Source: a virus (Duplodnaviria > Heunggongvirae > Uroviricota > Caudoviricetes). From it: a stretch of 10,684 nt of DNA. This document shows positions 1 through 10,044 of this stretch, one piece after another (position 1 is the first letter of the stretch; every line of letters begins with the position of its first letter). Position numbers and translations under genes: made by a program. The DNA lies in IMG/VR virus record IMGVR_UViG_2671180643_000008; one strand, given 5' to 3'. Under the pieces are notes generated by a model. The model was not told the DNA's origin. It saw nothing but the letters and a program-made list of their open reading frames with translations, and did not search any database.

Positions 1-1
1 G

Positions 2-172
2 ACGTTTTATAAACGAATTAATGCAGGCGATCGAAAAGGTGCCTGTGAGGCGATTCGCTGGTGGATTAAGGACGGTGGCAGAGACTGCCGTATCCGTTCA
101 AATAATTGCTACGGTCAGGTCTCACGGCGTGACCAGGAGAGCGCGCTGGCGTGCTGGGACATCGACAGATAG
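2..172 (+). CDS. Phage endolysin, C-terminal fragment (T4-lysozyme-like GH24, P21 R / RrrD type); 5' end lies outside the window
   Basis: Frame 2 is open from the window edge to TAG 170-172 and translates to ...TFYKRINAGDRKGACEAIRWWIKDGGRDCRIRSNNCYGQVSRRDQESALACWDIDR. This resembles the C-terminus of enterobacterial prophage lysozymes (recalled). It sits directly upstream of Rz/Rz1, as in a lysis cassette. Confidence 0.7.
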   Translation, partial: TFYKRINAGDRKGACEAIRWWIKDGGRDCRIRSNNCYGQVSRRDQESALACWDIDR

Positions 173-261
173 CAGAATATTTTCCTGAAAAATGACGTTG
201 GCCAACGCGGGTGGATAACACGAAATCCTGAAAACTGGTAAAACCTAAGTGAATAAAAGTA

Positions 262-300
262 AAAACCCCGTTTGTTGGCAGCAAGCGGGGTTTTGTGTTT
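262..300 (+). terminator. Intrinsic-terminator-like hairpin downstream of the endolysin gene
   Basis: AAAACCCCG (262-270) pairs perfectly with CGGGGTTTT (286-294), extendable to about 13 bp with one mismatch, and is followed by TTTTGTGTTTT. Seen directly in the sequence. Confidence 0.4.
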
Positions 301-392
301 TCTGACCTTGAGTAAGGCAAGGGAGAAATTATGGGTAGGGAGGTACTTTCCCTGTGAGGAAGTATAAAAGATTCTTTCTGAGGTTGTCCATT

Positions 393-506
393 ATGAAAGG
401 CATTGAAGTGGAGACGCCAGCCAGTCTGGATTTAACAAGAGCGGCAGCTTTTGCCATTCGTATTGTGGCCATTGCTGTTCTGGTCTGGGCAATCCGTTGG
501 TGGTGA
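393..506 (+). CDS. Hypothetical small membrane protein (37 aa) between endolysin and Rz
   Basis: ATG 393 to TGA 504-506 encodes MKGIEVETPASLDLTRAAAFAIRIVAIAVLVWAIRWW: a polar N-terminus followed by a hydrophobic helix-like segment. GAGG lies 9 nt upstream. The stop overlaps the Rz start (TGATATG). No homolog recognised. Confidence 0.25.
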   Translation: MKGIEVETPASLDLTRAAAFAIRIVAIAVLVWAIRWW

Positions 507-507
507 T

Positions 508-975
508 ATGAACCGTGTTCTGTGCGTGGTTATCATTGTCCTGCTGGTGGCCTGTGGTGCGCTTAGTCTGGGGCTGAATCATTACCGTGATCACGCCATC
601 ATCTACAAAGAGCAGCGCGATAAAAAAGCCAGTGAGCTGGAGCTGGCGAACGCGACAATTACTGATATGCAGATACGCCAGCGTGATGTCGCTGCATTTG
701 ATGCCAGATACTCGAGGGAATTAGCCGATGCGAGAGCTGAAAATGAAACTCTGCGTGCTGATGTTGCCGCTGGTCGTAAGCGCCTGCGGATCAACGCCAC
801 CTGCCCCGGTACCGTGCGTGAAGCCACCGGCACCTCCGGCGTGGATAATGCAACCGGCCCCCGACTGGCAGACACCGCTGAACGGGATTATTTCATCCTC
901 AGAGAACGGCTGATGGCAATGCAGAAGCAACTGGAAGGAGCACAGGAATATATCCGTACCCAGTGTATACCGTGA
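508..975 (+). CDS. Rz: Rz i-spanin (inner-membrane spanin subunit)
   Basis: Translation MNRVLCVVIIVLLVACGALSLGLNHYRDHAIIYKEQRDKKASELELANATITDMQIRQRDVAAFDARYSRELADARAENETLRADVAAGRKRL... has an N-terminal TM helix, a coiled-coil periplasmic domain, and the conserved NHYRD and PRLADTAERDYF motifs of lambda Rz. The ORF tool's upstream Met at 451 is rejected in favour of ATG 508, which sits just before the TM segment. Confidence 0.85.
   Translation: MNRVLCVVIIVLLVACGALSLGLNHYRDHAIIYKEQRDKKASELELANATITDMQIRQRDVAAFDARYSRELADARAENETLRADVAAGRKRLRINATCPGTVREATGTSGVDNATGPRLADTAERDYFILRERLMAMQKQLEGAQEYIRTQCIP
728..913 (+). CDS. Rz1: Rz1 o-spanin (outer-membrane lipoprotein), embedded in the +1 frame of Rz
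   Basis: Encodes MRELKMKLCVLMLPLVVSACGSTPPAPVPCVKPPAPPAWIMQPAPDWQTPLNGIISSSENG: a signal peptide with lipobox LVVSAC and a proline-rich mature part, very similar to lambda Rz1. GAGGGA lies 8 nt upstream of ATG 728. Entirely inside Rz in another frame. Confidence 0.8.
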   Translation: MRELKMKLCVLMLPLVVSACGSTPPAPVPCVKPPAPPAWIMQPAPDWQTPLNGIISSSENG

Positions 976-1261
976 TGTTTTGTTATGAAGGTGTTACTGG
1001 TAACGTTAAGGTAATTTAACAAAGAGTCAGTTCCGGACTTTATAGTGTGCTCAGTTCATGGCCAAAAACGATTTCTGTGATAAATATTTTGAATATTATT
1101 TACAGGTAAATGGAGTGGGGCACATGGATAGAAATATTACAATAGAGAATGAAGTATATGCCCGTATTGTATGGGCAGAGAAGGCAAAAACACGGTAATT
1201 CCGTGTGTTGCCATGATACCTGATTGGCAGAATAGTTGTTTGGTTTTGAGTATATAGTCAG

Positions 1262-1420
1262 CGTTTTTTGTTCAGTAATTGCTCCCTCAAAAAATAATAA
1301 AATAAGGTGATTATTTTTGTTTATTATTTAGTTTTTTTTGTGTGTTGTTTTATTGTTTTTGCGTGGTTTGTTTTTTATTGTTATTTCATTAAGGGAAGGT
1401 AAATTCAGGATGGCAGTCTG
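1262..1420 (+). promoter_or_regulatory. AT-rich, T-tract-rich upstream region of the PerC-like gene with a candidate sigma70 promoter
   Basis: Phased T-tracts (TTTTTTGT, TTTTATTGTTTTTG, etc.) suggest curved DNA. Candidate -35 TTGTTA (1378-1383), 16-bp spacer, -10 TAAATT (1400-1405). GGAGG at 1430-1434 lies 6 nt before ATG 1441. Confidence 0.3.
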
Positions 1421-1440
1421 TAGATAATCGGAGGTCACTT

Positions 1441-1755
1441 ATGCTACATGATCACGTGGCAGAATGTCTGGAGAAAAAAGGACTGTACCGGAGAGCAGCT
1501 GAACGATGGGCAAAAGTGATGGTACAGCTAAGTGATGACCAGAAAAGAAAAGTGGCGGCACAGAAACGAGCAGAGTGTTTGCGTAAGGCGCGCCGGACTC
1601 CGGTTTCACCGGTGAACCTGACCGAAATAAAACAAGCGGTCAACAGACTACATTCTGAGTTGGGAATGGGATTTGAAGAGCGGCGGGTATTCCGACGATA
1701 TAAAGGGACAGGAGAACAGAATACGTCCGGAAACGCGCGGTCAAAAAAATGCTAA
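1441..1755 (+). CDS. PerC-family transcriptional regulator (Pch-like, 104 aa); accessory moron gene
   Basis: Translation MLHDHVAECLEKKGLYRRAAERWAKVMVQLSDDQKRKVAAQKRAECLRKARR... carries the N-terminal A-E-x-L-E-x-K-G-L-(Y/W)-R-R-A-A-x-R-W signature that I recall for PerC and prophage Pch proteins. The 104-aa length matches Pch. Strong SD, AT-rich upstream DNA, and a position between lysis genes and cos. Confidence 0.72.
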   Translation: MLHDHVAECLEKKGLYRRAAERWAKVMVQLSDDQKRKVAAQKRAECLRKARRTPVSPVNLTEIKQAVNRLHSELGMGFEERRVFRRYKGTGEQNTSGNARSKKC

Positions 1756-1791
1756 AAAATATCTGAGAGAGTTATTGCCTGTTACCATAAG

Positions 1792-1820
1792 AAAAAGCGA
1801 CTTTAGTGGTCGCTTTTTGT
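1792..1820. terminator. Bidirectional intrinsic terminator between convergent genes
   Basis: AAAAAGCGAC (1792-1801), loop TTTAGTG, GTCGCTTTTT (1809-1818): a 10-bp perfect stem flanked by an A-tract 5' and a T-tract 3', so it can act on either strand. Lies between the stop of the PerC-like gene (1755) and the 3' end of the minus-strand gene (1837). Confidence 0.55.
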
Positions 1821-1836
1821 GTCATATATAAGTCGT

Positions 1837-2061
1837 TTAAGTAAACCTGTCTGAACAGGTGCTCTGGTCGTGTTTGTCTTTGTTGGGTACAAATTGAGAA
1901 TATTTTTCATTAATTAATCTTCTTCTGCAGGCTTCAATAACCCACGCTGAAAAATTACCTGAACCTTTCAGGTCAAGAGCGATGTTAATTTGTTCAATTA
2001 TCTGGTTTGGAAATCGGATGTTGCGGGTTGTTGTTCTGCGGGTTCTGTTCTTTGATGACAT
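1837..2061 (-). CDS. Hypothetical ribbon-helix-helix (Arc/MetJ/CopG-like) DNA-binding protein next to cos
   Basis: Translation MSSKNRTRRTTTRNIRFPNQIIEQINIALDLKGSGNFSAWVIEACRRRL... has a basic N-terminal tail, then a beta-strand (IRFP) and two helices, the typical RHH pattern. I recall a similar ORF in the equivalent position at the right end of lambda. Confidence 0.6.
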   Translation of the reverse strand: MSSKNRTRRTTTRNIRFPNQIIEQINIALDLKGSGNFSAWVIEACRRRLINEKYSQFVPNKDKHDQSTCSDRFT

Positions 2062-2268
2062 AATGTTGCCCCGTATTCAGTGTTGCTGATTTGTATTATC
2101 TGAAGTTGCTTTTACGCTAATTTGATGCAGATCAATTAATACGATACCTGCGTAATAATTGATTATTTCTCGTGGTTTGATGGCGTACACACATGTCGTG
2201 ATAAACCTCATGTAGATGATAATTATTATCATTTTCGTGGGTCCTTTCCGGCGATCCGACAGGTTACG

Positions 2269-2280
2269 GGGCGGCGACCT
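2269..2280. other. cosN cohesive-end site (12-nt GGGCGGCGACCT); cosQ expected just upstream (about 2230-2268)
   Basis: GGGCGGCGACCT followed by CGCGGGTTTTCGCTATTTATGAAAATTTTCCGG matches the first 45 nt of the lambda genome as I recall them. The upstream ...GGTCCTTTCCGGCGATCCGACAGGTTACG resembles the lambda right end. Lies immediately upstream of the terminase genes. Confidence 0.8.
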
Positions 2281-2314
2281 CGCGGGTTTTCGCTATTTAT
2301 GAAAATTTTCCGGG

Positions 2315-2416
2315 ATCCATGTCCGGTTTCTCTTCAAGTTAACTATATGAAAAATATAAAAACAGGTCTTCTGTGAACCGGACATGAACAAAAAACAGAC
2401 ATGTAAACCGGACATG
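2315..2416. repeat. cosB-like region: three copies of AAACCGGACATG (one inverted, two direct) flanking an AT-rich putative IHF bend site
   Basis: Copy A is inverted (CATGTCCGGTT, 2318-2328); copy B is 2376-2386 and copy C is 2406-2416 (AACCGGACATG). The AT-rich segment 2335-2365 between A and B parallels the lambda R3-I1-R2-R1 layout. Located between cosN and the small-terminase start. Confidence 0.45.
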
Positions 2417-2463
2417 ACCGGTTTTGTTGTGATTGTGAGGTGAGAGTTTTTGCGAGGTGAGGA

Positions 2464-2973
2464 GTGGCTACGCAGACTGAAGTTGCCAGGCATTTAAGTC
2501 TGACCGATCGCCAGCTTCGCAGATTGCAGAAATTGCCGGGTGCCCCGATATCAAATAAGCGAGGGCAACTGGATCTGGATGCCTGGCGCGATTTTTACAT
2601 ATCGTATCTGAGGAGAAGTAAAAACGATGTGCCTGATGGCGATAGCGAAGACGACTATGAGGAGAAATTGCTTATTGCCAGATGGGAACTGACAGCAGAA
2701 CAGGCTGTTACACAGCAGTTAAAAAATGAGGTGTCAAAAGGAAAACTTATTGACACCGGGTTCTGTATTTTTGCCCTCAGTAAGCTGGCAATGGCGTTAT
2801 CCAGTACGCTTGATTCCATCCCTTTATCCATGCAGCGACAGTTTCCTGATTTAACACCGCGCCATCTTGACCATCTGAAAACCCTTATTGCTAAGGGGGC
2901 AAATCAGTGTGCGCGGGCAGGGGATAAATTACCGGATTTACTCGATGAATATATCAGAGCAACAACTGAATAA
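2464..2973 (+). CDS. nu1: Terminase small subunit (gpNu1 family)
   Basis: The C-terminal two-thirds (...TGFCIFALSKLAMALSSTLDSIPLSMQRQFPDLTPRHLDHLK...LPDLLDEYI) is strongly similar to lambda gpNu1 as recalled; the N-terminal HTH region (MATQTEVARHLSLTDRQLRRL...) is divergent. GTG start at 2464 follows an in-frame TGA at 2458-2460 and an AGG-rich SD. The 3' end overlaps the A start by 29 nt. Confidence 0.85.
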   Translation: MATQTEVARHLSLTDRQLRRLQKLPGAPISNKRGQLDLDAWRDFYISYLRRSKNDVPDGDSEDDYEEKLLIARWELTAEQAVTQQLKNEVSKGKLIDTGFCIFALSKLAMALSSTLDSIPLSMQRQFPDLTPRHLDHLKTLIAKGANQCARAGDKLPDLLDEYIRATTE

Positions 2974-4874
2974 TATGATGGCTGCCGTTTCGGTTGCGCT
3001 GCAGCCTCTGGTCAGGGTTGTACCAATGACGGCAGTTGAATGGGCTGATCAAAATTATTATCTGCCTAAAGAATCCTCATACGGTGAGGGCGAATGGAAA
3101 ACGCTGCCATTCCAGATCGCCATCATGAACAGCATGGGGAATGATCAGATCCGCACTGTTAATCTGATTAAATCTGCCCGTGTTGGCTATACAAAGATGT
3201 TGCTGGGGGGTGGTCGGGTATTTTATTGAGCATAAATCCCGAAACAGTCTGCTTTTTCAGCCCACGGATTCTGCCGCTGAAGATTTTATGAAGTCTCACG
3301 TGGAGGCGACGATTCGGAACGTGCCATGCCTGAAAGACCTTTCCCCATGGCTGGGGCGTAAACATCGTGACAATACTCTCACGCTGAAACGCTTTTCATC
3401 GGGCGTCGGTTTCTGGTGCCTGGGCGGCGCTGCCGCCAAAAACTACCGTGAAAAATCCGTGGACGTGGTCTGCTATGACGAACTTTCCTCGTTCGAGCCG
3501 GATGTCGAAAAAGAGGGCTCGCCAACCCTGCTGGGGGATAAGCGTATTGAGGGGTCGGTGTGGCCAAAATCCATTCGCGGCTCGACGCCTAAAATCAAAG
3601 GCACCTGCCAGATCGAAAAAGCCGCTAACGAGTCGGCGCATTTTATGCGTTTTTATGTGCCCTGCCCGCACTGTGGGGAGGAGCAGTATCTGAAATTTGG
3701 CGATGAGTCCACGCCTTTTGGGCTTAAATGGGAGAAGGACAGCCCTGAAAGTGTTTTCTACCTCTGTGAACATCATGGCTGCGTGATCCATCAGTCTGAA
3801 CTGGACCAGAGCAACGGGCGGTGGATCTGTGAAAACACGGGCATGTGGACCCGTGACGGTCTGACGTTTTTCAGCGCCCGGGGTGATGAAATTCCGCCGC
3901 CGCGCTCCATCACGTTCCATATCTGGACGGCGTACAGTCCGTTCACCACCTGGGTACAGATTGTCTATGACTGGCTGGATGTACTGAAAGATCCCAACGG
4001 CCTGAAAACCTTTGTGAACACCACGCTGGGCGAGACCTGGGAAGAGGCCGTGGGCGAAAAACTCGATCACCAGGTACTGATGGATAAGGTGGTGCGTTAC
4101 ACGGCGGCGGTGCCTGCCCGGGTGGTTTATCTGACGGCGGGCATTGACTCGCAGCGAAACCGTTTTGAGATGTATGTCTGGGGATGGGCTCCGGGAGAGG
4201 AAGCCTTTCTGGTGGATAAAATCATCATTATGGGGCGTCCTGATGAGGAAGAGACGCTGTTACGTGTGGATGCGGCGATCAACAAAAAATACCGCCATGC
4301 GGATGGCACCGAAATGACTATTTCCCGTGTCTGCTGGGACACCGGGGGGATCGATGGTGAAATTGTTTATCAGAGATCAAAAAAACACGGTGTTTTCCGG
4401 GTGCTGCCGGTAAAAGGCGCATCTGTCTATGGCAAGCCGGTGATCACCATGCCAAAAACCCGCAATCAGCGGGGCGTGTATCTGTGTGAAGTGGGAACGG
4501 ACACCGCAAAAGAAATTCTCTATGCCCGTATGAAAGCCGATCCCTCGCCTGCGGATGAAGCCACGTCGTATGCCATCCGTTTTCCTGATGATCCGGAGAT
4601 TTTTTCGCAGACAGAGGCGCAGCAACTGGTGGCGGAAGAGCTGGTGGAGAAGTGGGAAAAAGGAAAGATGCGTCTGCTGTGGGATAACAAAAAGCGGCGT
4701 AACGAAGCGCTGGACTGCCTGGTGTATGCCTACGCGGCATTACGTGTGTCCGTGCAACGCTGGCAGCTTGATCTGGCTGTACTGGCAAAATCCCGGGAAG
4801 AAGAGACGACCCGGCCAACCCTGAAAGAACTGGCAGCGAAGCTGTCCGGAGGAGTGAATGGTTACAGTCGCTGA
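2945..4874 (+). pseudogene. A: Terminase large subunit (gpA family), interrupted by a +1 frameshift at a G6 run (3205-3210)
   Basis: ATG 2945 gives MNISEQQLNNMM...TAVEWADQNYYLPKESSYGEGEWKTLPFQIAIMNSMG...VGYTKMLLGGGRVFY and stops at 3227-3229. The remaining roughly 550 aa (WGVVGYFIEHKSRN...CPHCGEEQYLKFGD... to TGA 4872-4874) are in the next frame. Both parts are colinear with lambda gpA as recalled. Removing one G from GGGGGG restores K-M-L-L-G-V-V-G-Y-F-I-E-H-K. Confidence 0.8.
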
Positions 4875-8589: not shown

Positions 8590-9618
8590 ATGGGATTGTT
8601 TACGACCCGCCAGTTACTCGGTTATACCGAACAAAAAGTGAAATTTCGTGCGCTGTTTCTGGAGCTGTTTTTCCGCCGTACGGTGAATTTCCATACCGAA
8701 GAGGTGATGCTGGACAAAATTACCGGAAAAACGCCGGTGGCGGCCTATGTCTCCCCGGTTGTTGAAGGAAAAGTGCTGCGTCATCGCGGTGGTGAAACCC
8801 GCGTGTTACGTCCGGGCTACGTCAAGCCGAAACACGAATTTAATTACCAGCAGGCGGTTGAGCGTCTTCCCGGTGAAGATCCGGCTCAACTGAACGACCC
8901 GGCCTACCGTCGTCTGCGTATCATCACCGATAACCTCAAACAGGAAGAGCATGCCATTGTCCAGGTGGAAGAAATGCAGGCGGTGAATGCCGTGCTGTAT
9001 GGCAAATACACCATGGAAGGGGATCAGTTTGATACTGTCGAGGTGGATTTTGGACGCTCTGAAGGAAATAACATTGAGCAGGCCGACGGTAAAAAATGGT
9101 CTGAGCAGGACCGTGATACGTTTGATCCGACGCATGATATTGACCTCTACTGCGATCAGGCCAGCGGTCTTGTGAATATTGCCATTATGGACGGTACTGT
9201 CTGGCGTCTGCTGAATGGTTTTAAGCTGTTCCGCGAAAAACTGGATACCCGTCGCGGCTCAAATTCACAACTCGAAACGGCAGTGAAAGACCTGGGGGCG
9301 GTGGTGTCTTTCAAAGGGTATTACGGCGATCTGGCCATTGTGGTGGCGAAAACGTCTTATGTGGCAGAGGACGGTACCGAAAAACGTTATCTGCCGGAGG
9401 GCACGCTGGTCCTGGGAAATACGGCTGCAGATGGGATCCGTTGTTACGGTGCCATTCAGGATGCGCAGGCGTTGTCCGAAGGTGTGGTGGCTTCTTCCCG
9501 TTACCCGAAACACTGGCTGACCGTGGGCGATCCGGCCCGTGAATTTACCATGACGCAGTCCGCACCGCTGATGGTGCTGCCGGATCCGGATGAGTTTGTG
9601 GTGGTACAGGTGAAATAA
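8590..9618 (+). CDS. E: Major capsid protein (gpE family)
   Basis: The 342-aa product shows extended identity blocks to lambda gpE as recalled (PGYVKPKHE, DPAYRR-RII, QVEEMQAV-AVL-GKYTM, KLDTRRGSNS-LETAVKDLG, REFTM-QSAPLM-L-DPDEFV). Synteny D-E-FI. Confidence 0.9.
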   Translation: MGLFTTRQLLGYTEQKVKFRALFLELFFRRTVNFHTEEVMLDKITGKTPVAAYVSPVVEGKVLRHRGGETRVLRPGYVKPKHEFNYQQAVERLPGEDPAQLNDPAYRRLRIITDNLKQEEHAIVQVEEMQAVNAVLYGKYTMEGDQFDTVEVDFGRSEGNNIEQADGKKWSEQDRDTFDPTHDIDLYCDQASGLVNIAIMDGTVWRLLNGFKLFREKLDTRRGSNSQLETAVKDLGAVVSFKGYYGDLAIVVAKTSYVAEDGTEKRYLPEGTLVLGNTAADGIRCYGAIQDAQALSEGVVASSRYPKHWLTVGDPAREFTMTQSAPLMVLPDPDEFVVVQVK

Positions 9619-9625
9619 TCCGTGA

Positions 9626-9656
9626 GCGGGGGCGAAATGCCCCCGTGTCTTTTTTC
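9626..9656 (+). terminator. Intrinsic-terminator-like hairpin immediately after the major capsid gene
   Basis: GCGGGGGC (9626-9633), loop GAAAT, GCCCCCG (9639-9645), then TGTC and TTTTTT (9650-9655). Located 8 nt after the E stop and 14 nt before the FI start. Confidence 0.5.
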
Positions 9657-9669
9657 ACAGGGGGATGAT

Positions 9670-10044
9670 ATGGCAACGAAAGAGCAAAATCTGAAACGGC
9701 TTGATGAACTGGCCCTGATTCTGGGGCGTGAGCCGGATATATCCGGGAGTGCCGCAGAGATAGCGCAGCGGGTGGCAGAATGGGAAGAGGAAATGCAGTC
9801 ATCCGGCGATGATGTACAGGTTATGAATATGGATATCCGGGAGAGGGAAAACGCGGCTCATGATGTTCGTGAGGAAACATCCGGCGCGTTAACGCGCATC
9901 AGAGTTCTGACCTGCCTCCATCTCTGTGGCGTTGATGGTGAAACGGGGGAATCCGTTGAGCTTGCGGATGTTGGTCGGGTGATTCTGATTATGTCCTCAG
10001 ATGCAAAAACACACGTTGATGGTGGAATGGCTGTTTATGCGTGA
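9670..10044 (+). CDS. FI: Probable gpFI-like DNA-packaging / head assembly protein
   Basis: A 124-aa acidic protein (MATKEQNLKRLDELALILGREPDISGSAAEIAQRVAEWEEEM...) in the FI position between E and FII. AGGGGGA SD 5 nt upstream. The stop overlaps the FII start (ATGCGTGA). The call rests mainly on synteny and size; sequence similarity to lambda FI is only loosely recalled. Confidence 0.6.
   Translation: MATKEQNLKRLDELALILGREPDISGSAAEIAQRVAEWEEEMQSSGDDVQVMNMDIRERENAAHDVREETSGALTRIRVLTCLHLCGVDGETGESVELADVGRVILIMSSDAKTHVDGGMAVYA

What the first reader, a model, noticed from the sequence alone, without database searches (positions are those of the whole stretch)
1792..2268. Ribbon-helix-helix gene transcribed from the cos region, convergent with the PerC-like gene
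The minus-strand RHH ORF (1837-2061) starts about 200 bp from cosN, so its promoter must lie in the cosQ-proximal DNA (2062-2268). One weak candidate on the minus strand is -35 TTGATC with -10 TAAAAG, near 2100-2140. Its transcript converges on the PerC-like gene at a shared bidirectional terminator (1792-1820). An RHH protein here could be a small repressor or antitoxin-like regulator. Its function is unknown, although I recall an ORF at the equivalent position in lambda.
Basis: partly seen in the sequence, partly recalled or inferred. Interest (0 to 1): 0.4.

Follow-up and report, generated by a model that had tools for sequence, protein, structure and literature searches.

The report
YlcI/YnfO-family small gene beside cos
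The minus-strand ORF next to the prophage cos site is a real, conserved, already-annotated small gene (YlcI/YnfO family, DUF3950), most likely a ribbon-helix-helix DNA-binding regulator; phage lambda carries an unannotated copy, and nobody has tested what the family does.

Summary
ORF 1837-2061(-) encodes 74 aa, and its ATG lies 207 nt from the lambda-type cohesive end (2269-2280). It converges on a PerC-family gene (1441-1755) at a hairpin with A5/T5 flanks (1792-1818).

The protein belongs to Pfam DUF3950 and NCBIfam YlcI/YnfO, and RefSeq annotates the same DNA that way. About 85% of complete E. coli genomes match this 1.2-kb region. Phage lambda has an unannotated 64-aa homologue at 48109-48303(-).

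The gene is under purifying selection: variable sites by codon position are 7/5/30. It also occurs in phages without a lambda cos. The RHH fold is supported but not proven. AF2 gives an unstructured N-terminal stretch (residues 1-18) followed by two helices. hhalign against Arc finds the correct register (P 4e-4, probability 35%). There are PHROG cross-hits to HicB-like and Arc-like families, but Foldseek found nothing.

The promoter claim is not supported. cos is sealed in a prophage, no good sigma-70 site exists, and the proposed site is poor. The window holds no toxin partner.

Distant relatives sit alone on the opposite strand in PICI satellites and other integrase-bearing elements, and some are fused to a TerS-type HTH. 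The most likely role is a small repressor made in the lysogen. This is already known as a gene family, with its function untested.

The parts
1837..2061 (-). YlcI/YnfO-family (DUF3950) gene, 74 aa. Codons 1-49 (2061-1915) form the conserved module. Codons 50-74 form a variable tail specific to the PerC-type context.
   Evidence: Pfam PF13132 E 1.3e-17. NCBIfam NF041551 scores 34.5 bits against a cut-off of 30. phrog_949 E 6e-31. RefSeq annotates a 'YlcI/YnfO family protein' at this position on DNA that is 100% identical over window 1300-2500. Variable sites by codon position are 7/5/30.
1912..2034 (-). Predicted ribbon-helix-helix core (about residues 10-50). The proposed strand is T-R-N-I-R-F, followed by helix A (19-32), the turn GSGN, and helix B (37-55).
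   Evidence: AF2 places helices at 19-32 and 37-55 with block pLDDT 82-87. hhalign against the Arc family aligns NIRFP...G in the RHH register (P 3.9e-4, probability 35%). There are PHROG cross-hits to HicB-like and Arc-like families.
1792..1818 (.). Hairpin with A5 and T5 flanks between the two convergent genes; a candidate bidirectional intrinsic terminator.
   Evidence: inverted repeat I8, 10 of 10 complementary. Invariant or nearly so in 55 of 57 loci with this tail type.
1441..1755 (+). PerC-family transcriptional regulator gene (Pch-like), convergent with the small gene.
   Evidence: Pfam PerC E 3.8e-44. RefSeq annotation.
2062..2268 (-). Leader and upstream DNA of the small gene; the promoter is unresolved. 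Contains inverted repeat 2131-2143/2151-2163, the AT palindrome 2216-2232 and cosQ 2239-2245. The 51-aa ORF 2077-2232 here is not conserved as an ORF.
   Evidence: About 89% identical to the right end of lambda.
2269..2280 (+). cosN 12-nt cohesive-end sequence GGGCGGCGACCT.
   Evidence: Identical to the left end of lambda. The lambda record ends at the base aligned to window 2268.
2464..2973 (+). Terminase small subunit (Nu1-like C-terminal part with a different N-terminus), the first late packaging gene to the right of cos.
   Evidence: Pfam Phage_Nu1 E 1e-18 over residues 49-150. phrog_57 and phrog_1790.

Best explanation
The ORF is a genuine protein-coding gene of the YlcI/YnfO (DUF3950) family. 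This is the same gene as ylcI of DLP12, ynfO of Qin and an unannotated 64-codon ORF at the right end of phage lambda.

Its conserved N-terminal ~50 residues most likely form an Arc/Mnt/CopG-type ribbon-helix-helix domain. The layout would be a basic N-terminal arm, a strand around T-R-N-I-R-F, and two helices. Such a domain would dimerise and bind DNA through a two-stranded beta-sheet. The C-terminal 25 residues are a disordered tail that is swapped by recombination.

The gene lies antisense to the late (pR') transcript, between the lysis/moron region and cos. It is therefore expected to be transcribed on its own, mainly in the lysogen or before late transcription floods the region. Its transcript would end at the hairpin it shares with the PerC-family gene. 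The most likely job is a small sequence-specific repressor, probably autoregulated, with an unknown further target.

Shown here: the gene is real, its family, its selection, its synteny, and a terminator-like hairpin. Inferred: the RHH fold (about 85%), DNA binding and repression (about 50-60%), and the timing of expression. Unknown: the promoter and the operator.
For: **Family and annotation**
- Family membership. Identical DNA in 11 listed genomes carries a gene annotated as 'YlcI/YnfO family protein'.
- The 1.2-kb query matches 4631 of 5426 complete E. coli genomes.
- K-12 synteny is ybcW > < ylcI ... nohD and nohA < > ynfO.
- Lambda homologue.

**Selection on the protein**
- Variable sites by codon position are 7/5/30 in codons 1-49, across 21 distinct coding sequences.
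- The ORF persists with unrelated flanks in HNH/Terminase_2 phages. There, homology stops at the ATG and a strong GAGGA Shine-Dalgarno sequence is present.

**Fold**
- AF2 gives an unstructured stretch at residues 1-18, then helices 19-32 and 37-55, with core block pLDDT 82-87.
- hhalign of the family profile against an Arc-family profile aligns NIRFP..G to NLRWP..G (P 3.9e-4, probability 35%). Single-sequence Arc and Mnt give the same register.
- 11 of 21 members hit phrog_497 'HicB-like' (best 8.3e-5). Two hit phrog_228 'Arc-like repressor' (best 6.8e-4); where the match was inspected, in P0187, it covers the DUF3950 region.

**Transcription of that strand**
- K-12 ybcW-ylcI is listed as a convergent excludon seen in at least 50% of RNA-seq samples (PMC12288877).

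**Repressor-like placement in relatives**
- Relatives are lone genes on the strand opposite their neighbours, beside integrases, in PICI-like satellites and other integrase-bearing elements.
- One satellite copy has two perfect TGGTACGTACCA palindromes bracketing a TATAAT just upstream of its start codon.

**Terminator**
-.
Against: - **No structural match.** Foldseek against PDB gave 0 hits and BFVD gave nothing meaningful. HMMER against PDB gave no RHH hit.
- **Weak homology statistics.** The hhalign probability is only 35% and covers just the strand and helix A.
- **Strand not modelled.** The AF2 monomer does not form the beta-strand. Overall pLDDT is 68.5.
- **No promoter.** No convincing sigma-70 promoter lies upstream, and the Shine-Dalgarno sequence in this context is weak (GGGG).
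- **No operator.** No operator motif shared between the cos-type and HNH-type contexts was found. One shared 12-mer is not conserved.
- **No experiments.** No experimental paper on YlcI/YnfO function was found.
Confidence: 0.62

Rival explanations
1. It is the DNA-binding half of a two-gene module (antitoxin-like or operon regulator) whose partner has been lost here. In the ancestral layout the RHH gene is followed on the same strand by a DUF1398 gene (ynfO-ydfO). In this window that partner was replaced by the PerC cassette, leaving an orphan.
For: - In 18 YnfO-type loci a co-oriented DUF1398 gene starts 57-58 nt after the stop. In lambda and DLP12 it follows at about 657 nt, with ybcW inserted between.
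- The C-terminal tail type co-varies with the downstream neighbour.
- There are weak PHROG hits to HicB-like antitoxins.
- ydfO is a strongly regulated transcript in K-12 (PMC4077768).
Against: - The window has no co-oriented downstream gene; the hairpin begins 19 nt after the stop.
- The upstream 51-aa ORF is broken by indels in relatives.
- Nothing indicates that DUF1398 proteins are toxic. YdfO overexpression is reported to raise oxidative-stress resistance (as cited in PMC4077768).
- There are no PADLOC hits.
- The RHH module is kept under selection in three different downstream contexts.
Confidence: 0.13
2. It acts in packaging or in helper-satellite conflict rather than as a generic repressor. 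In this reading it is a cos/terS-proximal DNA-binding protein that modulates terminase access, late read-through into the packaging genes, or satellite (PICI) induction.
For: - The gene keeps the same place, between the lysis genes and terS on the antisense strand, in phages with two unrelated packaging modules: lambda cos/Nu1 and HNH/Terminase_2.
- PICI-like satellites carry paralogues. In two satellite types the DUF3950 domain is fused to the N-terminal HTH of Terminase_2 small subunits. Pfam scores are 45.4 and 29.1 bits against a cut-off of 26.1, and the profile aligns to TerS structures 4zc3, 2cmp and 3zqp.
Against: - The Rz-cos interval is a general moron and recombination hotspot, and cos cutting stimulates recombination on its left side (PMC3945230). 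The position may therefore reflect history rather than function.
- Other family members sit beside fimbrial/restriction-modification genes, cytochrome bd genes or cdt genes.
- The satellite palindrome and repeat motifs are absent from the window.
- From my own recollection of the cos literature, not checked with a tool here: DNA to the left of cosQ is not needed for lambda packaging.
Confidence: 0.1
3. It is not a functional gene. On this view the reading frame is preserved passively, because the DNA beside cos is conserved for cis-acting reasons or is homogenised by frequent recombination.
For: - The whole 340 bp left of cosN is about 89% identical to lambda, including the non-coding part.
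- There is no clear promoter and only a weak Shine-Dalgarno sequence.
- Many database 'variants' look like sequencing noise from lambda DNA (my inference).
Against: - Variation is biased to third codon positions, 7/5/30.
- The ORF is retained intact with unrelated flanks, and distant homologues (about 31-55% identity to the window protein) occur in Proteus, Providencia, Salmonella and Rouxiella in non-cos contexts.
- By contrast, the neighbouring 51-aa ORF, which shares the same conserved DNA, is broken by indels.
Confidence: 0.05

Closest known systems
E. coli K-12 YlcI (DLP12, b4589) and YnfO (Qin, b4533); Pfam DUF3950 / NCBIfam NF041551
   Same: Same family by curated cut-offs. Same position and orientation next to the Nu1-like gene (nohD/nohA) and cos. 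The N-terminal 49 residues are nearly identical.
   Different: The C-terminal tail and the downstream neighbour differ. Here it is the PerC-family gene plus a shared hairpin; in K-12 it is ybcW/ybcV or ydfO. The K-12 genes are themselves uncharacterised (PMC11551758).
Unannotated 64-codon ORF of phage lambda, 48109-48303 minus strand
   Same: Orthologous position about 200 nt left of cosN. Four of the first 49 residues differ. The DNA is about 89% identical from codon 45 to cos.
   Different: It has a different tail (TSEKRAYTSIKSDEE) and is followed by lambdap79 and lambdap78. It is not in the RefSeq annotation. It is not the gene called orf-64 in lambda, which is lambdap73, upstream of S.
P22 Mnt and Arc (Arc/MetJ/CopG ribbon-helix-helix repressors)
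   Same: Small size. The motif N-[IL]-R-[FW]-P is followed by two helices in the same register. From general knowledge of P22: mnt is likewise a small repressor gene embedded in a late region and expressed in the lysogen.
   Different: Homology is not statistically secure (hhalign probability 35%). No antirepressor or other obvious target gene lies next to it. No operator has been identified.
HicB-type antitoxins (C-terminal RHH DNA-binding domain)
   Same: Weak profile similarity of the DUF3950 region to phrog_497 in 11 of 21 family members.
   Different: There is no HicB N-terminal domain and no HicA-like or other toxin gene adjacent.
DUF3950 genes of Gram-negative PICI and helper-embedded PICI satellites
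   Same: Same domain. They are lone genes on the strand opposite the element's main operon, near the integrase and an AlpA-like gene. The satellite layout is described in PMC10111431.
   Different: The strand residues diverge (K-N/G-I-R-F). Some copies are fused to a TerS-type HTH. They have their own palindromic or repeated upstream motifs, which are absent from the window.

Membership tests
DUF3950 / YlcI-YnfO family | Score above the curated cut-offs of Pfam PF13132 and NCBIfam NF041551 | tested here: met
   Pfam scores 63.8 bits against 25. NCBIfam scores 34.5 bits against 30.
DUF3950 / YlcI-YnfO family | Synteny of the founding members: next to cos and the Nu1-like terS gene, on the opposite strand, in a lambdoid prophage | tested here: met
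   Window layout compared with K-12 DLP12 and Qin. cosN lies 196-207 nt upstream in 40 of 54 distinct loci.
Ribbon-helix-helix (Arc/MetJ/CopG) superfamily | A strand-helix-turn-helix layout of about 45 residues | tested here: inconclusive
   AF2 gives helices 19-32 and 37-55 after an unstructured N-terminus. Foldseek found no match.
Ribbon-helix-helix (Arc/MetJ/CopG) superfamily | Significant sequence or profile similarity to an established RHH family | tested here: inconclusive
   hhalign against the Arc family gives P 3.9e-4 and probability 35% over 25 columns in the correct register. PHROG hits are HicB-like 8.3e-5 and Arc-like 6.8e-4 for some members. Pfam and PDB HMMER searches found none.
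Ribbon-helix-helix (Arc/MetJ/CopG) superfamily | Dimerisation through an antiparallel beta-ribbon that reads the major groove; operator binding | not testable with these tools
   Needs a multimer prediction, a solved structure or EMSA.
Type II toxin-antitoxin system (RHH antitoxin) | An adjacent co-transcribed toxin gene | tested here: not met
   The hairpin begins 19 nt after the stop, and the next gene is convergent. The upstream 51-aa ORF is not conserved. There is no PADLOC hit. Relatives have a co-oriented DUF1398 gene, but it has no known toxicity.
Bidirectional intrinsic terminator | A G+C-containing stem-loop followed by a U-run on both transcribed strands, placed just after both stop codons | tested here: met
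   GCGAC/GTCGC stem extended by A5/T5. Energies are -14.7 and -12.3 kcal/mol with z -3.8 and -3.6. It lies 37 nt and 19 nt after the two stops. Actual termination was not tested.
   No site reaches 9 of 12 on the minus strand. The best lenient candidates score 8 of 12. The proposed TTGATC-15-TAAAAG lacks T6.

The most novel reading that the evidence does not exclude
DUF3950 proteins are a so-far unrecognised class of lysogeny-phase RHH repressors shared by lambdoid phages (lambda included) and their PICI satellites. On this reading the phage copy beside cos and the satellite copies, some fused to a TerS-type HTH, take part in helper-satellite cross-regulation or in control of packaging-gene expression and cos recognition.
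Probability: 0.12. Interest if true: 0.6.

Novelty: already known. Interest (0 to 1): 0.3.

Why it matters
The gene family is one of the commonest prophage genes in E. coli. The region matches about 85% of complete genomes, often in several copies, and the family is present in phage lambda itself. Even so, it remains in the K-12 'y-ome', and lambda's copy is not in the reference annotation.

Showing what a small RHH protein encoded antisense to the late operon beside cos actually binds would close a small gap in the best-studied phage. Because paralogues sit in the regulatory zone of PICI satellites, it might also bear on how Gram-negative satellites stay silent.

As it stands, the finding is a correct re-discovery of a known but uncharacterised gene. 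It is not a new kind of element.

Tried and rejected
- **Foldseek** of the AF2 monomer against PDB and BFVD gave no usable hits. A two-helix monomer of a dimeric fold is not informative for this search.
- **HMMER against PDB**, using the protein, two family profiles and a distant member, found no RHH structure.
- **Profile search of 5.8 billion proteins.** The listing is capped at the 120 best hits, all of them DUF3950, so it gave no bridge to other Pfam RHH families.
- **Shared operator search** between the cos-type and HNH-type upstream regions found one 12-mer (AACACTGAATAC). It is not conserved among the HNH-type loci, so I treat it as chance.
- **Satellite motifs** (TGGTACGTACCA, GTTTAACAC) are absent from the window and from lambda.
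- **Rfam** found nothing in 1-3000.
- **PADLOC** found nothing relevant.
- **51-aa ORF 2077-2232 as a partner or toxin** was rejected because relatives and lambda carry frameshifting indels in it.
- **The name 'orf-64'** for the lambda copy was rejected. That name belongs to lambdap73.
- **TSS supplement look-ups** did not work: one paper is not held and the other has no supplement text.

Full report
**What is in the window.** The window is the late region of an E. coli lambdoid prophage. In order it holds:
- the end of an endolysin gene, then Rz/Rz1 (451-975);
- an AT-rich gap;
- a PerC-family gene (1441-1755, +; Pfam PerC E 3.8e-44);
- the minus-strand ORF 1837-2061;
- a lambda-type cos;
- a Nu1-like small terminase gene (2464-2973), large terminase, portal, protease/scaffold, decoration and major capsid genes.

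Region 1300-2500 is 100% identical to 11 listed complete E. coli chromosomes. Of 5426 complete genomes, 4631 hold a match to some part of it, at a median of 2 places per genome and up to 13.

**Checking the observation.**
- The ORF has the stated coordinates and encodes 74 aa.
- The lambda cohesive-end sequence GGGCGGCGACCT is at 2269-2280, and the last base of the lambda record aligns to window 2268. cosQ (GGGTCCT) is at 2239-2245. The ATG is 207 nt from cosN.
- The hairpin AAAAAGCGAC-N7-GTCGCTTTTT at 1792-1818 folds on both strands well beyond shuffled controls (z -3.8 and -3.6). It sits 37 nt after the PerC stop and 19 nt after the minus-strand stop.
- The hairpin is invariant or nearly so in 55 of 57 related loci with the same C-terminal tail.
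- The simple terminator scanner missed it. My guess is that the A/T flanks extend the stem and use up the T-run.
Lambda 48109-48303 (minus strand) encodes a 64-aa protein that differs at 4 of the first 49 residues. It is not annotated in NC_001416.
- That ORF should not be called orf-64. In lambda that name belongs to lambdap73, upstream of S.

**What it is.**
- The protein passes the curated thresholds of Pfam DUF3950 (63.8 bits against 25) and NCBIfam YlcI_YnfO_N (34.5 against 30), and it matches phrog_949.
- RefSeq annotates a 'YlcI/YnfO family protein' at this position on DNA identical over window 1300-2500.
- In K-12, ylcI lies between ybcW and nohD in DLP12, and ynfO lies next to nohA in Qin. 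Position and orientation match the window.
- The family is small: 101 clusters at 50% identity among 1.84 billion representatives. Many apparent variants sit on about 3.5-kb ENA contigs, which look like error-laden copies of lambda DNA.
- I found no functional study. ynfO is still listed among uncharacterised K-12 genes in 2024.

**Is it a real gene, or just conserved DNA beside cos?** Three lines favour a real gene.
- Across 21 distinct coding sequences, variable sites in codons 1-49 fall 7/5/30 by codon position.
- The 147-nt module also occurs in phages with an HNH/Terminase_2 packaging module. There the homology stops exactly at the ATG, the ORF diverges from the HNH gene across a 41-nt gap, and it has a strong GAGGA ribosome-binding site.
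- Distant homologues (about 31-55% identity to the window protein) exist in Proteus, Providencia, Salmonella and Rouxiella.

By contrast, the neighbouring 51-aa ORF (2077-2232) lies in equally conserved DNA and forms its own PHROG. It is broken by 7-nt and 1-nt indels in relatives and in lambda, so it is not coding.

The C-terminal tail is mosaic and co-varies with the downstream neighbour, with the junction near codon 50. This fits the reported stimulation of recombination on the left side of cos (PMC3945230).

**The RHH assignment.** Evidence in favour:
- AF2 on a 21-sequence alignment gives an unstructured N-terminus (1-18), helix 19-32, a four-residue turn and helix 37-55. Block pLDDT is 82-87 in the core and low in the tail. 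That is what an RHH monomer looks like without its partner strand.
- hhalign places N-I-R-F-P...G of the family on N-L-R-W-P...G of Arc and N-F-R-M-P...G of Mnt.
- With an Arc-family profile, the pairwise P-value is 3.9e-4 and the probability is 35% over 25 columns.
- 11 of 21 family members hit the 'HicB-like' phrog_497 (best 8.3e-5). Two hit the 'Arc-like repressor' phrog_228 (best 6.8e-4). In P0187, the member I inspected, both matches cover the DUF3950 region.

Evidence against or missing:
- Foldseek and HMMER found no solved RHH structure.
- A dimer could not be modelled.

I put the RHH fold at about 85%. It is the best reading but is not proven.

**Promoter and transcription.** That does not hold, for four reasons.
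- cos is sealed in a prophage or a circular genome, so transcription could start to its right.
- The family has no conserved upstream module.
- No sigma-70-like site reaches 9 of 12 on the minus strand between 2062 and 2500. A lenient scan finds only 8-of-12 candidates, including one that overlaps cosQ (AGGACC-18-TATCAT).
- The proposed TTGATC (2135-2130) and TAAAAG (2114-2109) pair has a 15-nt spacer and lacks the final T of the -10.

Two symmetric elements in the leader are conserved in lambda and could be protein-binding sites. They are ATCAATTAATACG-N7-CGTAATAATTGAT (2131-2163) and ATGATAAT-A-ATTATCAT (2216-2232). This is only a lead.

The one piece of expression evidence I could find is indirect. 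K-12 ybcW-ylcI is listed as a convergent excludon in at least half of the RNA-seq samples analysed (PMC12288877). This implies that the ylcI strand is transcribed there.

**Partner gene.** The window has none. The hairpin follows the stop directly and the next gene is convergent.

In the YnfO-type context, a co-oriented DUF1398 gene (ydfO; solved structure 2HH8, function unknown) starts 57-58 nt downstream in all 18 such loci. In lambda and DLP12 the DUF1398 gene follows after an inserted ybcW/lambdap79. So the older arrangement may be a two-gene unit, and the PerC cassette has replaced the second gene here. Nothing suggests that DUF1398 proteins are toxins.

**Relatives elsewhere.** More distant DUF3950 genes are typically lone genes on the strand opposite their neighbours, in integrative elements beside an integrase.
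- Several of these elements are PICI-like satellites: integrase, an AlpA-like gene, primase, and late genes such as a small terminase or capsid. This matches the organisation described in PMC10111431.
- Two satellite types carry a fusion of the DUF3950 domain to the N-terminal HTH of Terminase_2 small subunits. Both are above the Pfam cut-off, and the profile aligns to TerS structures 4zc3, 2cmp and 3zqp.
- One satellite copy has two perfect TGGTACGTACCA palindromes, 33 nt apart start to start, bracketing a TATAAT immediately upstream of its start codon. That is a classic autoregulated-repressor layout.
- Other members sit next to cdt, fimbrial/restriction-modification or cytochrome bd genes.

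These contexts support 'small DNA-binding regulator of mobile elements'. They leave open a more specific link to packaging or to helper-satellite interplay.

**Most likely mechanism.** I propose a dimeric RHH protein made from its own weak or regulated promoter, on the strand antisense to the pR' late transcript.
- It would be expressed in the lysogen, or early, and then be shut down by head-on late transcription.
- Its transcript would terminate at the hairpin shared with the PerC-family gene. Q-modified polymerase would read through that hairpin in the other direction.
- It would act as a sequence-specific repressor with an unknown operator.

Shown: gene, family, selection, synteny, hairpin. 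Inferred: fold, DNA binding, timing. Unknown: promoter and target.

The rivals are an orphan of a two-gene module (0.13), a role in packaging or satellite conflict (0.10), and a non-functional frame (0.05).

**Verdict.** The exceptions are the promoter argument and the antitoxin suggestion. The element is already known as a gene family and is annotated in RefSeq on identical DNA, so the novelty is low. What remains of interest is that the family, including lambda's own unannotated copy, has no tested function, and that paralogues occur in satellite regulatory zones.

Noticed in passing
window 3205-3210 (terL, 2888-4874): The large terminase gene is frameshifted by an extra G in a G-run (CTGGGGGG against CTGGGGG in CP027550). 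This splits it into ORFs 2888-3229 and 3180-4874. Either this prophage copy is defective or there is a sequencing error.
   Followed up: partly
window 2310-2424: The cosB region differs from lambda's. It holds three to four copies of AACCGGACATG/CATGTCCGGTT in both orientations. The small terminase matches Pfam Phage_Nu1 only from residue 49 on, which suggests a different cosB-recognition specificity.
   Followed up: no
window 2077-2232 (-): This 51-aa ORF forms its own PHROG family (phrog_9395, E 1.6e-35). It is interrupted by 7-nt and 1-nt indels in close relatives and is split in lambda. It is probably a recurrent gene-caller artefact.
   Followed up: yes
window 2216-2232 and 2131-2163: Two symmetric AT-rich elements lie between the small gene and cosQ, and both are conserved in lambda. 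They are ATGATAAT-A-ATTATCAT (resembling Fur-box hexamers) and ATCAATTAATACG-N7-CGTAATAATTGAT. Their function is unknown.
   Followed up: partly
L083 6001-6363; L087 4714-5103: PICI-like satellites encode fusions of a DUF3950 domain to the N-terminal HTH of Terminase_2 small subunits. The fusion genes lie on the strand opposite the satellite operon, between the integrase/AlpA-like genes and the primase module.
   Followed up: partly
L083 5545-5589 and 5890-5980: Two perfect TGGTACGTACCA palindromes bracket a TATAAT just upstream of a satellite DUF3950 gene. A run of GTTTAACAC-like repeats lies upstream of the fusion gene. Both are candidate operators.
   Followed up: partly
L083 6400-9800: The satellite sits beside a 61-aa Terminase_2 fragment and an HNH gene of a prophage, and that prophage has its own DUF3950 gene (9576-9776). 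This looks like a helper-embedded PICI as described in PMC10111431.
   Followed up: no
L097 2257-2958; 18 IMG/VR loci: YnfO-type copies are always followed 57-58 nt later by a co-oriented DUF1398 gene (ydfO, PDB 2HH8), a possible two-gene unit. The C-terminal tail of the DUF3950 protein co-varies with the downstream neighbour, with the junction near codon 50.
   Followed up: partly
protein hits P0024-P0118 and others (ENA contigs of about 3.5 kb); P0043, P0238, P0060: Many error-laden YlcI variants sit on about 3.5-kb contigs, and some are labelled Staphylococcus aureus or Klebsiella on tiny contigs. They look like lambda control DNA carried over into assemblies, and they inflate the apparent diversity of the family.
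   Followed up: no
window 1441-1755 and 1260-1400: The PerC-family gene is preceded by a very T-rich, AT-rich stretch. A PICI-encoded PerC-family protein was reported to repress, not activate, LEE1 (PMC11773190). The direction of regulation by this copy should therefore not be assumed.
   Followed up: no
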